Source of the DNA: Octopus vulgaris | Lineage: Eukaryota | Length of the DNA: 64,000 nucleotides | Assembly: GCA_951406725.2 (NCBI GenBank) | Contig: OX597828.1 | Coordinates: forward strand, 70,184,001 to 70,248,000 | Direction of reading: 5' to 3' | Shown here: piece by piece, positions 502 through 49,829 of the stretch | How the letters are laid out: each line of letters opens with the position of its first letter | Numbering within the stretch: the first letter of the stretch is position 1 | Notes under the pieces: model-generated | Told to the model about the DNA's origin: nothing | Seen by the model: the letters and a program-made list of their open reading frames with translations, nothing else | Databases searched by the model: none | Made by a program: the position numbers and the translations under genes

Positions 502-534
<33 letters not shown>

Positions 535-794
535 CTACTAATATAGGATGAAGTTTTTTTACAGAAAAAAATTTCATCAAGAAAAAGTGGCAGCATATTA
601 AAATACCTTTAAAGGTTAGAATTATAAACAACTTATAAACAAGGGCAAAAGAAAATTAATTCTATGCCAATATGCTGATAACAGACTTTTAAATTGTCAA
701 TTTCCACATATCATTATATACCCACTACAGAAATACGTTGTGCTGAAATCGAGGAAAGCTAACCAACAGAATTTTTTTTTTTTAAAGTTCGTTA

Positions 795-853
795 TTTCTA
801 TATTGAATCAATTTCAGAATTAATCTCATAGATTTTTTCCTCATCAGTAGAAA
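795..853 (-). ncRNA. Type I hammerhead ribozyme motif (left arm)
   Basis: Minus strand: TTTCTA-CTGATGA-GGAA(AAAATCTATGAGATTAA)TTCT-GAAA-TTGATTCAA-TA-TAGAAA. 6 bp stem I, extended stem II, short stem III, AUA cleavage triplet. Confidence 0.75.
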
Positions 854-1342
854 ATACGATAAGAAATAAATGAAATACTTACATGCGCCCATGGAAAAAA
901 AAAAACGAAGCAAAAGTCATGGGTACATATAAGTACCCCAGATATATCTAAATATAAAATCCTTTGGTCAGCTTCAGCACACGTGTGAACTGTTCTCCAC
1001 CACAGCTTATAGTGGTTACCAGTCCCTATAGCGAATGCCCTTGTTTATAAGTTGCTTATAATTTTAACCTTTAAAGGTATTTTAATATGCTGCCACATTT
1101 TTTGATGAAAATTTTTTCTGTAAAAAAACTTCATCCTATATTAGTAGTAGAGTTATCACTATTCGCTATAGGGGCTGGTAACCACTATAAGCTGTAGTAG
1201 AGAACAGTTCACACGTGTGCTGAGGCTAACCAAAGGATTTTATATTTAGATATATCTGGGGTACTTATGTGTACTCATGACTTTTGCTTCGGCTTTTTTT
1301 TCCATGGGCACATGTAAGTATTTCATTTATTTCTATTTGTAT

Positions 1343-1401
1343 TTTCTACTGAGGAGGAAAAAATCTATGAGATTAATTCTGAAATTGATTCAATATAGAA
1401 A
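1343..1401 (+). ncRNA. Type I hammerhead ribozyme motif (right arm)
   Basis: TTTCTA-CTGAGGA-GGAA...TTCT-GAAA-TTGATTCAA-TA-TAGAAA. Differs from the left copy only at the freely variable N7 core position. Predicted cut after 1395. Confidence 0.75.
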
Positions 1402-3333
1402 TAACGAACTTTAAAAAAAAATTCTGTTGGCTAGCTTTCCTCAATTTCAGCACAACATATTTCTGTAGTGGTTATATAATAATATGTGGAAATTGACGAT
1501 TTAAAAGTCTGTTATCAGCATATTGGCATAGAAATAATTTTCTTTTGCCCTTGTTTTATAAGTTGTTTATAATTTTAACCTTTAAAGGTATTTTAATATG
1601 CTGCCACTTTTTCTTGATGAAATTTTTTTTCTGTAAAAAACTTCATCCTATATTAGTAGTATATATATATATATATACTACTATATATATATATTACGGA
1701 GATGTACTCGCATAGCAAGTGATTTGATCTGAGATCGTGTGCTGGAACGAAAACAATTGCAGCGTGGAAGGTGTTTGTAAGCCATTTAAGAAACACACAA
1801 AAGCCGTTCGATTCACTTCAACATTTAAGTTCAACATTTACACTTCAACATTTACACTCATCACAGGTGCACTTTATGGATCTGAGTGAAACTAAGCAAT
1901 AATGTAGCTTTACATTTTTTTTTTAAATAACACAGAAAACTTTGGGAGAAATTTGGTTGCTATTTTTAGCTGGTTAAGTGTCACAGCAACTCATCGTTTA
2001 TACTGTTGTGGCACTTAGTCTATAGCTAAGGCATGATGATGATTATCATCATCATCATCCTCATCAACAACATCTTCCCTTGACACCTGTCTTTCATGCT
2101 TGCATGGGTTGGATGCTTTGACAGGATCCTATAAGTCAGAGGACTTGCCATGCTCCAGCTGAGCCACATACACCCAGCATGGTCTAGCTGTGTTTGTGGT
2201 AAATAGACACAACTGGAAGTGAAGTGATGAACTACTGAATTCTACATAACACTAGACACAGATGTATTGGTCTCCACTGTCAGCAGTGGGAGTACTGTGT
2301 AGCTGATGAGTGTTTTCTTCATTTTTAATGAGCTAAATTTAATCGGTTTGCTATCTTGTTAATTACCATAAAGTTGGAAGCTTTCATTGGCGCCATAGTG
2401 AAAACGCTTACGGTTCATATTTACAGGAAAGACATGCTAGAACTCTATCACACCATCACACCGTCACACCTTCCTGGTGAATTCTGTTGCCGTGTGAATG
2501 TTCTCTGCACATTTAACAAGAGGAAGAAGAACACAAAGTGGCAGAGTAAGGAATGGGTGGCAGAACAATACGTGAGGAAGTATAATGATGCTTGATGTTA
2601 TACGTGAAAGTGAAACTAGGAGACATACATGTTTTGAGGAAATCAACGAAAATAAACAACAACAACAACAAAACAGAAAGGTAGGGTGGAGGTTGGGGTG
2701 GGGAGTGGGGTTGAGGTGGGGGGAGTAAAGTTTATCTCCAATAATTTTGAATTTGGCATTTAGCTAATCCCTTTAATGTTTTTGATATGTTTTAAATAAT
2801 TAATGATGCCTGGAAAATTCGTTGTATAACAAATAATTAGTTATTATTTGCCAACCTGTTTTCATTTCCTCGGTTTTGTTGCTAGAAAAATTTTCAGTTT
2901 AAAAGATTAATGAACAGAATGAAGAGAGCTGTGACTTACATAATAGCAAAGACTCGTTAGTTTGATGAAGTTAGCCTCAAAACTCATTCTCTCGTCTTCG
3001 TTCAACAGAGAAATAATCAATGACTGTATATTTTAAACTGTTTTTTTCTCCCCTTTTCTTTGCATTTCATCTACTTTCCTCCTCTCCTCCGTTTCCCCCC
3101 CCCCCTACATTTTGCAATCAATCTATGTTTCTCGTGACCTGACTGCCTCATTATATATACACATACTGACAAGCACATATATATACTGGAGTTCATTATA
3201 CACCCACAAACCCATACGGCACACAGCTTGTTATACGCCCACAAACATGTATACAGCACATGTGTAGAGCTTATGAAAATGCTAATGCAAACACAGGAGA
3301 AAGTTGCAGACATCGATTGTACCGTTCGCTGCC

Positions 3334-34069: not shown

Positions 34070-34654
34070 GTAAAGCTTGAAAGGTAGTGTGTTATATCAA
34101 ACAGCAGAGTTTCTCCACTTACCACTGGAAATCAATGATTCGAGAAGAAAGCTTCAGTTTCATGTCAGACTTGCTTGACACCTCTCATTGATAACATGAG
34201 CCAATAAAAATACTACAGCCTCCCTCCTCCAAGTGGTCTCCAGATCTGCTAGAAATAGCAGCCAAATCTCCACCAAATCAAACAATCTGCTATCTAAAAT
34301 AAGGATGTGACAACACACGATAATGTGGACCTACATATTGTTAAATGGTGGCATTGCCACTGTTGGAATGTCTGTGATTCTGGCTCTGTTTCATCAGGGA
34401 CAACCTGGGGTTAAACATCATCATTACTATGTTTATTGATAGGTATTAGATGAACACTAACCTTAATACTTGGTGGGAAAATCAATAAATGTACTTGTAG
34501 TTCCTTATATAATATTATGTCATTAATTTTAGGGGATTTTTGACTGTTGGTGATAGCAAGAGAGGGGAGGGGCATTAGTTGGGACTAGAGTGAAGACTCC
34601 AGCTTTATATTTGTTAATCTCACTGAGCCTATAATCTCTATGCTATATATATAT

Positions 34655-35240
34655 ATAATTCACCAAAAATTAATTTGCAAAGGTGTCATTAATTCTATTA
34701 TTATCCAATGTAACTATTTAAAAAATGATAATAACAGAATCAGTGACACAGGTGATAGCAGGCCAAAAATAGCATTAAATAGCCGAGGGATTAAAATAAA
34801 TCAAAGGACATACTAAGTATGTCTACCTGCTTGAAATAACAGTCAAAACCCTTATTAAATCGCCAAAAATACACTGATGAAAACTACAGAAATCAAACAA
34901 AGGCAAAATCAGGTTAAGACAATCTACTAACATACATTTAAGTATCTGGACTCACGTGGACCGGTTTCTGCCCTGGCAAAATAAGCCTTAGCTTCTTCAG
35001 CACTCGTTACCATGATTAGAGATTCCCAACCCATCGTTTTGAAGTCTGTGCTGCAACTGATTCGTTTCGCGCCGAAGTCACGGCAGCCACCTGTGTAAAA
35101 TAATCTTGATACAATTTACGAGAAAAATAATTCACCAAAAATTAATTTGCAAAGGTGTCATTAATTCTTTTATTATCCAGTGTAACTATTTTTAAAATGA
35201 TAACAGAATCAATGACACAGGCGATAGCAGGCCAAAAAAA
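34655..35240 (-). mobile_element. Non-coding hammerhead-bearing element: 472 bp unit + ~115 bp terminal direct repeat, in (TA)n
   Basis: 34655-34769 is repeated at 35127-35240. Central HHR. TA repeats on both sides. Confidence 0.75.
34956..35003 (-). ncRNA. Minimal type I hammerhead ribozyme with palindromic stem III (CCGG), GUC site
   Basis: Minus strand: GTG-CTGAAGA-AGCTAAGGC(TTATTTT)GCCAGGGCA-GAAA-CCGG-TC-CAC. Confidence 0.75.
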
Positions 35241-35756
35241 TATATATATATACGTGTGTGTGTGTGTGTTTGTGTGTACATATGTGTATGTGTTCATGTA
35301 TATATGTATGTGTATATATATGTGTGTGTATACATATGAATGTATTTGTGTGTGTGTATATATGTAAGTAGAAAAATGCACTTTTATATTCAGACAAGTG
35401 TTCTCAAGCTTGGTTGTTAAAATTTATATTTATGTGTGTATGTATGTATGTATGTATGTATGTATGTATGTGTGTATATATGTATGTGTGTATGTATGTA
35501 TGTATGTATATATGTGTATATGTATGTATATCTGTGTGTATATGTATGTCTGTATGTATGCATGTATGTATGCATGCTTCATACACACATACACATGTAA
35601 ACCTAAATACTATAAACGCATACATGGCAAACCTAACTATTTCTCCATAGATTGAAAGAAACCATGAACCGCCATTCTTGATTTTCAAATCTTATTGGTG
35701 TCTACATTATTGACCAATCCCAGAGAAATATGCAGCCAATGTTTATATATAGAGAA

Positions 35757-49208: not shown

Positions 49209-49790
49209 ACAGGCATGTCAGAAGTAAATACACACCCTTGTAATCATTAGAATTTATTTAAATCTGAAATTATACATTCAAATTATTTATTTATTATCAT
49301 CATAATGTGAATATCTAATATTTAGTAGGCATGCCCTTTGCATTTTTCAATGCAAGGACCCTATTAGGCATGCTGCTGATCAGATGATAAACATTCTCTT
49401 GAGGAATTTCTTACCAAGTTTCATGTGGTAATCTCAAAAAGTCTGACTTTGAAGATGCTTTCTTGTTCTTCTTACAAAGTGACCTGTCCATTATACCCCA
49501 GAGGTGTTCTATAGGGTTTGTATCTGGTGATTGACTTGGCCATGGAAGCTTTTTAATGCCATTCTCTTCCAACCAGTCTTGGGTCTTTTTAGCCGTGTAA
49601 CAAGATGCCCCATCTTCGAAGACCATTGGAAGGAGTCTTTTCTGCAATATGGACTCATATTTATCTGAGCTTAGGTTGCCCTCACACTCCACCAGCTCTG
49701 ATTGGCCATTGCTCCAAATTGCTCCCCAGACCATCACAGAATAACCGCCATGTTTCATTGTGGTTTTTTGTCTGTTTTTTTTTGTAGTTT
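49209..49790 (-). mobile_element. Tc1-family DNA transposon 3' half (decayed DD34E transposase + TIR)
   Basis: KHGG.SVMVWGAI, (Q)DGA..., WPSQSPD.NPIEHLW motifs. Tc1-like TIR CAGGCATGTCAGAAGTAAATACACACCC at about 49210. Confidence 0.9.
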
Positions 49791-49829
49791 CAGCTCAGAG
49801 CTGCAGCCTTGCATTCATACATTCGTACA

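What the first reader, a model, noticed from the sequence alone, without database searches (positions are those of the whole stretch)
34655..35240. Unit-plus-115 bp terminal redundancy with one central ribozyme: possible footprint of reverse transcription of a circular RNA
Seen: a 472 bp period with a ~115 bp direct repeat at both ends, an HHR (CTGAAGA...GAAACCGGTC) in the middle, no ORF and (TA)n flanks. The element at 1036-1661, with no evident sequence similarity, has the same geometry (510 bp period, ~115 bp redundancy, central HHR). Established: retrozymes make circular RNAs via HHR cleavage and ligation, and PLEs form partial tandems. Inference: both are ~1.2 rounds of reverse transcription around a ~0.5 kb circle primed at TA repeats, i.e. 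candidate undescribed retrozyme families.
Basis: partly seen in the sequence, partly recalled or inferred. Interest (0 to 1): 0.75.

Follow-up and report, generated by a model that had tools for sequence, protein, structure and literature searches.

The report
Truncated Penelope-mobilised hammerhead repeats
Both elements are old, cut-short copies of scattered non-coding repeats that carry a predicted self-cutting RNA motif and were likely pasted into TA microsatellites by a Penelope-type enzyme, a known kind of parasite; their matching ~115-base end repeats are not a family trait, and an RNA circle as template remains possible but untested.

Summary
The geometry is real: period 472, 115-nt end repeat (92% alike), one type I hammerhead on the minus strand, TA flanks, no ORF.

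Both belong to dispersed families. The end repeat is not constant: 6-180 nt in family A, 13-508 nt in B, and most arms are shorter than one unit. The 3' ends are fixed: two sites per family, joined to (TA)n. Back-to-back insertions use opposite sites in 21 of 21 (A) and 16 of 17 (B) classifiable cases. A coding Penelope-like family in this genome also shows two ends and TA flanks. No coding partner sharing sequence was found.

For a circle: 107 scar-free crossings of the cut site, and 13 of 28 family-A arms stopping at the second start site. Against: A's ribozyme has A.A in place of the G-C pair closing stem II, two-ribozyme A copies are nearly absent, and no RNA data exist.

The circle model has been in print since 2014, and this scan has noted younger families of this kind in this genome. 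Verdict: new members of a known kind.

The parts
34655..35238 (-). Element A: one arm of 1.24 units (unit 472 bp; unit positions u360 to u472, then a full unit) of a dispersed non-coding hammerhead repeat family
   Evidence: 61 insertions analysed (two are segmental duplicates)
34655..34769 (-). 3' copy of the end repeat; it ends at start site 2 (u460-474), joined to TA
35127..35238 (-). 5' copy of the end repeat: the truncated upstream partial unit; its length varies between copies
34953..35006 (-). Predicted type I hammerhead: CUGAAGA 35000-34994, GAAA 34968-34965, palindromic minimal stem III ACCGGU, predicted cut between 34959 and 34958; A.A instead of G-C at the base of stem II
   Evidence: no Rfam hit
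34769..34806 (-). Start site 1 (u323-360, mode u337 = 34792): the other fixed 3' end of the family, internal in this copy
   Evidence: 45 of 88 arms end here
34683..34749 (-). Imperfect inverted repeat (u380-446) inside the tail between the two start sites
   Evidence: about 74% self-complementary
34644..34657 (.). (TA)n target at the 3' end of A
35240..35252 (.). (TA)n at the 5' end of A
1036..1661 (+). Element B, right arm: 1.23 units (unit 510 bp) of a second, unrelated family; ends at its site 2
533..1036 (-).
1338..1405 (+). Predicted type I hammerhead of B: CUGAGGA 1349-1355, stem III AUUG/CAAU, predicted cut after 1395
   Evidence: no Rfam hit
791..858 (-). Second hammerhead of B in the inverted arm (CUGAUGA at 847-841)
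502..534 (.). (TA)n flank of B, left
1660..1694 (.). (TA)n flank of B, right

Best explanation
Elements A and B are 5'-truncated copies of two dispersed, non-coding repeat families with a predicted hammerhead ribozyme, likely inserted into (TA)n by the reverse transcriptase and endonuclease of a coding Penelope-like element (PLE). SHOWN: dispersal; short unit with a recurring head-to-tail junction; two fixed 3' ends per family at TA; scattered 5' ends; back-to-back arms ending at opposite sites; two ends at TA in a coding PLE of this genome. INFERRED: the enzyme nicks both strands of a TA run and starts cDNA at two internal sites of the RNA, one per strand. Each cDNA runs backward until it stops. 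An arm that runs past one unit leaves an 'end repeat' whose length is only the overshoot, about 115 nt here by chance. One surviving arm gives element A; two arms give element B. The template held more than one unit of continuous sequence across the ribozyme site. A unit-length circle is my preferred form (about even odds); an uncleaved tandem transcript is the main alternative. UNTESTED: self-cleavage, circles, expression, and which PLE is the helper.
For: 3' ends: 78 of 88 A arms and 66 of 78 B arms end at one of two sites; 49 of 66 and 56 of 78 arms have TA directly 3'. Back-to-back insertions: A 21 opposite, 0 same, 3 other of 24; B 16 opposite, 1 same (this window), 8 other of 25. Control: a 781-aa RT + GIY-YIG family has TA flanks, ~456-504-bp terminal repeats and two 3' ends 40 nt apart, 18 and 7 rows, two loci fetched twice. 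This matches the PLE 'tail' and the two RT start sites shown in vitro (PMC11167929) and the TA targets and inverted 5' copies of PMC8557442. Hammerhead support: relative family A2 (unit ~476, 60% identical along the unit) has stem I CCACA/TGTGG against GCGTG/CACGT in A; B relatives swap stem I pairs. One template per insertion: repeats within an arm differ by 6.5% vs 7.9% between loci (A) and 6.1% vs 7.8% (B), closer in 27 of 33 loci, one tie dropped, p 3e-4. For a circle: 107 crossings of the cut site without an indel within 3 nt; 13 of 28 A arms that run back to site 2 stop there.
Against: No coding element sharing sequence with A or B was found, but only 30 of 148 GIY-YIG matches plus 14 stretches were examined, so the helper is unidentified. 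Against a ribozyme-made circle in A: A.A at the base of stem II in 30 of 30 parsed copies (unfiltered rows agree), where A2 has G-C. Stem III is minimal and would need a dimer, yet an exact search for two cores one unit apart gave 1 match, whose first ribozyme lacks its 5' half. In vitro, a PLE used uncleaved RNA and ribozyme mutants still inserted. The stop at site 2 is weak in B (4 of 32, p 0.07) and was noticed in the data, not predicted. Long arrays were not seen: the maximum is 1.38 units in A and 2.58 in a B relative.
Confidence: 0.85

Rival explanations
1. Same PLE-type insertion, but the template is an uncleaved linear transcript of a rare tandem source copy (2-3 units). No circle exists and the ribozyme is dispensable or decayed, at least in A.
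For: Two-ribozyme copies exist among B-type elements: 2.0, 1.83 and 2.58 units. Scar-free crossing is expected of uncleaved RNA. PMC11167929 found unprocessed RNA the dominant substrate. A's core is non-canonical.
Against: It needs sources that are regenerated, and no intact A dimer was found (exact match only, forward hits only). It explains stops at site 2 only through a transcription start or a bound protein there.
Confidence: 0.4
2. One reading: every insertion is about 1.2 rounds around a circle and leaves a fixed ~115-nt redundancy.
For: Both window copies have it. All 4 site-2 arms of A longer than 1.05 units stop at u339-392, near site 1.
Against: Redundancy is 6-180 nt in A (n=12) and 13-508 nt in B (n=29); 54 of 66 A arms and 49 of 78 B arms are no longer than one unit.
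Confidence: 0.05
3. The elements are pLTR/tail fragments of long coding PLEs, or local duplications.
For: Coding PLEs of this genome leave similar TA-flanked ends. GIY-YIG fragments lie near 3 of the loci.
Against: The short head-to-tail junction recurs in dispersed copies. The nearby PLE fragments are separated from the element or in opposite orientation. A2 keeps the same unit length at 60% identity.
Confidence: 0.06
4. Partial tandems arise when a new copy inserts into an older copy, because the endonuclease cuts AT-rich sites in the element itself.
For: The PLE endonuclease cuts ATT in its own pLTR in vitro. Both start sites of A carry ATTAATTTT.
Against: Repeats within an arm are closer than between loci, and junctions are seamless, without TA between units.
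Confidence: 0.08

Closest known systems
Metazoan non-LTR retrozymes (Cervera and de la Pena 2020, PMC7229834: passages and Discussion read; Li, Clavereau and Pollet 2026, bioRxiv 10.64898/2026.07.22.740005: parts 1-3 of 5 read)
   Same: Non-coding unit with one type I hammerhead, low GC (30-36%), head-to-tail junction, co-occurrence with PLEs; monomer-like dispersed copies; unit length within the 51-972 bp range of Li et al.
   Different: Mostly sub-unit to 1.5-unit arms instead of arrays; larger than the 170-400 nt RNAs of Cervera 2020; no RNA, cleavage or circle shown; neither window copy has two tandem ribozymes; no sequence link to a pLTR found.
Endonuclease-bearing Penelope-like elements (Craig et al. 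2021, PMC8557442: passages read; Frangieh et al. 2024, PMC11167929: parts 1-2 of 4 read)
   Same: 5' truncation, partial tandem, inverted 5' copy, (TA)n target, a tail at one end only, two fixed 3' ends.
   Different: No ORF; tail of about 90 nt (B) and 130 nt (A) instead of 30-40 nt; start sites about 170 and 270-300 nt past the predicted cut.
PLE minimal hammerheads (Cervera and de la Pena 2014, PMC4209133: parts 1-2 of 4 read)
   Same: Short palindromic stem III suited to a dimer; unpaired base after A9; the paper proposes circles as templates for more-than-unit reverse transcription.
   Different: A has a further unpaired A before G12 (or an A.A in place of G10.1-C11.1). B has a 4-bp stem III and a canonical stem II base.
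Non-autonomous Chlamys elements such as MRC1 (PMC8557442, passage read)
   Same: Non-autonomous PLE derivatives that form pLTRs and head-to-tail insertions.
   Different: Those lack canonical hammerheads and resemble their autonomous families at the 3' end; no such partner was found here.

Membership tests
Metazoan non-LTR retrozyme | Type I hammerhead in each unit | tested here: met
   Core and stems in A and B; compensated stem I in relatives. Rfam gives no hit.
Metazoan non-LTR retrozyme | Canonical core with G10.1-C11.1 | tested here: inconclusive
   Met in the B majority and in A2; A has A.A in 30 of 30 parsed copies; both window arms of B have G.U there.
Metazoan non-LTR retrozyme | Non-coding short unit, dispersed as a family | tested here: met
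   At most 75 aa stop-free; 61 and 50 insertions analysed.
Metazoan non-LTR retrozyme | Tandem copies with at least two complete ribozymes | tested here: inconclusive
   Not met by either window copy. Met by B-type loci L048, L198, L200, L201. For A one match with an incomplete first ribozyme; exact-match search, probably incomplete.
Metazoan non-LTR retrozyme | Self-cleavage and accumulation of linear and circular monomer RNA | not testable with these tools
   Only assembled contigs were available.
Metazoan non-LTR retrozyme | Sequence relation to the pLTR of a coding PLE (Li 2026) | tested here: inconclusive
   None among 30 of 148 GIY-YIG loci and 14 longer stretches.
PLE-type insertion | Fixed 3' ends with a tail at one end, 5' truncation | tested here: met
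PLE-type insertion | Partial tandem and inverted 5' copy; AT-rich or (TA)n target | tested here: met
   24 of 61 and 25 of 50 insertions are back-to-back; TA flanks.
Autonomous PLE | ORF with RT and GIY-YIG domains | tested here: not met
   No ORF in the units; a PLE protein finds no match in the window.
Plant LTR retrozyme | Type III hammerhead in two LTRs of constant length | tested here: not met
   Type I motif lies outside the end repeat; repeat length varies.

The most novel reading that the evidence does not exclude
A PLE enzyme dimer copies one unit-length RNA circle from two start sites at once, one per nicked strand. The cDNA from site 1 runs round and halts where the site-2 cDNA is anchored; the site-2 cDNA tends to halt after exactly one round. 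Family A records this: 13 of 28 arms stop at site 2, several joined directly to a short inverted site-2 arm, so that the two arms tile one circle. A would also have spread with an A.A at the conserved base of stem II, either an active variant core or proof that cleavage is dispensable.
Probability: 0.3. Interest if true: 0.65.

Novelty: new member of a known kind. Interest (0 to 1): 0.32.

Why it matters
How Penelope-like elements and animal retrozymes build their partial tandems is unsettled: circle, template jump or uncleaved multimer. These short families give countable rules that any mechanism must meet: two start sites used on opposite strands, seamless passage through the ribozyme site, and in A stops at the second start site. 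A ~0.5-kb unit is a convenient template for an in vitro test. The two copies in this window are old (5.4% and 2.7% substitutions between the end repeats), single-ribozyme arms and poorer test cases than the younger arrays noted elsewhere in this genome.

Tried and rejected
RNA: no RNA holder listed. Contigs of four runs (three guessed RNA, one of unknown kind) cover parts of A-like sequence but cannot show ends, strand or circles; not used as evidence. Rfam: the whole-window scan was swamped by microsatellite hits (150 of 294 shown); focused scans found no hammerhead; one search was an uninformative scan of a coding stretch. Folding: the isolated motifs fold no better than shuffles (z +0.6 to -0.8); circular units give z -2.3 (A) and -3.3 (B), but the antisense strands give -1.8 and -5.3 (40 shuffles), so this does not favour the RNA strand. 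Helper search: BLASTN and TBLASTX of both units against GIY-YIG loci found only inserted non-coding relatives; the A-like stretch beside one PLE turned out to be another short family, A2. Run-off at the ribozyme cut: none in A or B (0 of 144 5' ends within 5 nt). In A2, 6 of 27 arms stopped 0-7 nt past the cut (p 0.002), but a second sample gave 2 of 19 (p 0.44), and the spot holds an ATAT that can pair with the TA target; left as unresolved. The C-G/T-A swap in A's stem II (13 vs 14 of 28 parsed) is probably one subfamily event. Literature: 'retrozyme' + 'cephalopod' gave only PMC8557442; 'Penelope-like' + 'twin priming' + 'inverted' + 'tail' gave one review, seen as a listing only. The library lacks most subscription papers, and the preprint's supplements were not seen.

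Full report
Observation. Element A spans 34655-35238. Its ends align over 115 columns at 92% with a period of 472, and TA runs lie on both sides. The hammerhead core is on the minus strand: CUGAAGA at 35000-34994, GAAACCGGUC at 34968-34959, predicted cut between 34959 and 34958. Element B has the 510 period and 94% end repeat described, with its core at 1349-1395 on the plus strand. It also has an inverted arm at 533-1036 with a second core, so the whole insertion is a near-palindrome between TA runs at 502-534 and 1660-1694. A and B share no significant similarity. Neither unit is coding.

Families. The window lies in a 2.8-Gb, microsatellite-rich animal genome; earlier notes of this scan call it an octopus, which I did not check. 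Both elements are dispersed over many chromosomes. The first-look candidate numbers (1507, 2374) are not copy numbers; an exact pattern for A's ribozyme matched 39 places. I analysed the 30 best loci of each of five searches (for A; 10, 28 for B), 61 and 50 insertions after removing duplicates (two A loci are segmental duplicates). Two of these searches used the window's own elements as query and so favour long copies. Copies differ from the family majority by about 3-7%.

The 115-nt repeat is not a family trait. Positions below are unit positions (u) in ribozyme sense. Arms run from 0.05 to 1.38 units in A and to 2.0 in B; 54 of 66 and 49 of 78 are no longer than one unit. Among longer arms the overshoot is 6-180 nt (A, n=12) and 13-508 nt (B, n=29). 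A third family, A2, shows overshoots of 115-186 nt in the five loci where a self-match was found.

What is fixed. 3' ends fall at two sites per family: A at u323-360 (45 of 88 arms) and u458-u3 (33 of 88); B at u410-422 (24 of 78) and u505-u3 (42 of 78). TA follows directly in 49 of 66 and 56 of 78 arms. In back-to-back insertions the two arms end at opposite sites in 21 of 24 (0 same, 3 other) for A and 16 of 25 (1 same, 8 other) for B; the one same-site case is element B of this window. As a control, a coding family of this genome (781 aa, RT and GIY-YIG; Neptune-like by its linker cysteines, a label from recall) has TA flanks, terminal repeats of about 456-504 bp and two 3' ends 40 nt apart, with one back-to-back locus using both. 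Craig et al. describe TA targets, inverted 5' copies and a tail at one end (PMC8557442, passages). Frangieh et al. showed that a PLE protein cuts and extends both strands and starts reverse transcription at two internal sites that bound the tail (PMC11167929, parts 1-2). The insertions therefore bear the PLE signature. The helper is not identified: no shared sequence was found among 30 of 148 GIY-YIG loci and 14 longer stretches.

The ribozymes. Rfam misses both, and they fold no better than shuffles alone. Relatives support them. A2 (unit ~476, 60% identical to A along the unit) has a core at the same place, with stem I CCACA/TGTGG where A has GCGTG/CACGT, and the same two-part stem II. B relatives show other paired stem I sequences; stems II and III were required to pair by the filter, so only stem I counts. 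A departs from the canon: A.A stands where A2 has G10.1-C11.1, in 30 of 30 parsed copies. That such a change lowers activity is recalled, not read (one search gave listings only). Its palindromic minimal stem III is the type that needs a dimer (PMC4209133). The window copy also has a substitution in stem I.

Form of the template. For a circle: (1) 107 crossings of the predicted cut show no indel within 3 nt, and 0 of 144 5' ends lie within 5 nt of it, so cleaved linear monomer is not the usual template. (2) The repeats of one arm are closer to each other than to other loci in 27 of 33 cases (p 3e-4); inverted arms likewise differ by 4.6% vs 8.1% (A) and 5.9% vs 7.6% (B). (3) In A, 13 of 28 arms that run back to site 2 stop at u452-472, against about 7% per 20 nt overall (p 1e-8). 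Base-level reading confirms the stops, and in six site-1 arms a short inverted site-2 arm is joined on directly. Against or neutral: (1) and (2) fit an uncleaved transcript of a homogeneous tandem source as well. (3) was seen in the data, is weak in B (4 of 32, p 0.07) and modest in A2 (6 of 16 at u441-468 by hand count), and could mark a transcription start, a bound protein or an endonuclease site. Many back-to-back arms overlap in template, which needs two RNAs or strand displacement. Two-core copies are nearly absent in A (1 match, first ribozyme incomplete) and few in B-type elements (6 matches in 5 loci, up to 2.58 units); both searches were exact and returned forward hits only. Frangieh et al. 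found cleavage unnecessary in vitro and no RNA-seq ends at the cut. No usable RNA data exist here. I put the circle at about even odds.

Mechanism. The most likely course: a source copy with more than one unit is transcribed; the RNA, circular or uncleaved, binds a PLE protein; the enzyme nicks (TA)n on both strands and primes cDNA at site 1 on one strand and site 2 on the other; each arm stops early. Element A is a single site-2 arm that ran 1.24 units. Element B kept two arms, unusually both from site 2. Neither has two ribozymes in tandem, so neither can release a unit-length RNA by itself.

Known and new. Non-LTR retrozymes and their circles are described (PMC7229834), their PLE origin is argued in a 2026 preprint, and circle-templated more-than-unit cDNA was proposed in 2014. 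My searches found no paper on cephalopod retrozymes or on opposite-strand use of the two start sites, within a library that lacks most subscription papers. I had reached the two-site reading before seeing them; they are unchecked and count as no support.

Noticed in passing
L206-L265 (e.g. L215:1125-1781): Family A2: non-coding unit of ~476 bp, 60% identical to A, canonical hammerhead. 8 of 46 arms stop 0-8 nt past the predicted cut (6 of 27, then 2 of 19), at an ATAT that could also pair with the TA target.
   Followed up: partly
window 54196 (-), 25827 (-), 57586 (-): Three more hammerhead-like motifs in short TA-flanked fragments; the first two are alike and also show an unpaired A on both sides of stem II.
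   Followed up: no
L198/L203 (G000:C21:4588273-4589307), L200, L201, L048: B-type copies with two complete hammerheads; L198 has 2.58 units, 96% alike among themselves but 82% to the window's B. Candidate source loci.
   Followed up: partly
L091-L095 (e.g. L091:430-5672): Young coding PLE family: many copies with an intact 781-aa RT/GIY-YIG frame preceded by a second frame of 330-480 codons, terminal repeats 99-100% alike in three copies, TA flanks, 40-nt tail.
   Followed up: partly
L048:358-912, L028:609-1225, L092:5540-5982, L196: Further B-related short families at 65-78% identity with compensated hammerhead stems.
   Followed up: partly
window 49411-49794 (-): Fragment that reads like a Tc1/mariner DDE transposase (label from recall).
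   Followed up: no
L189-L191 (G000:C13:81.39-81.42 Mb): The same A insertion three times at ~10.7-kb spacing: a segmental tandem repeat.
   Followed up: no
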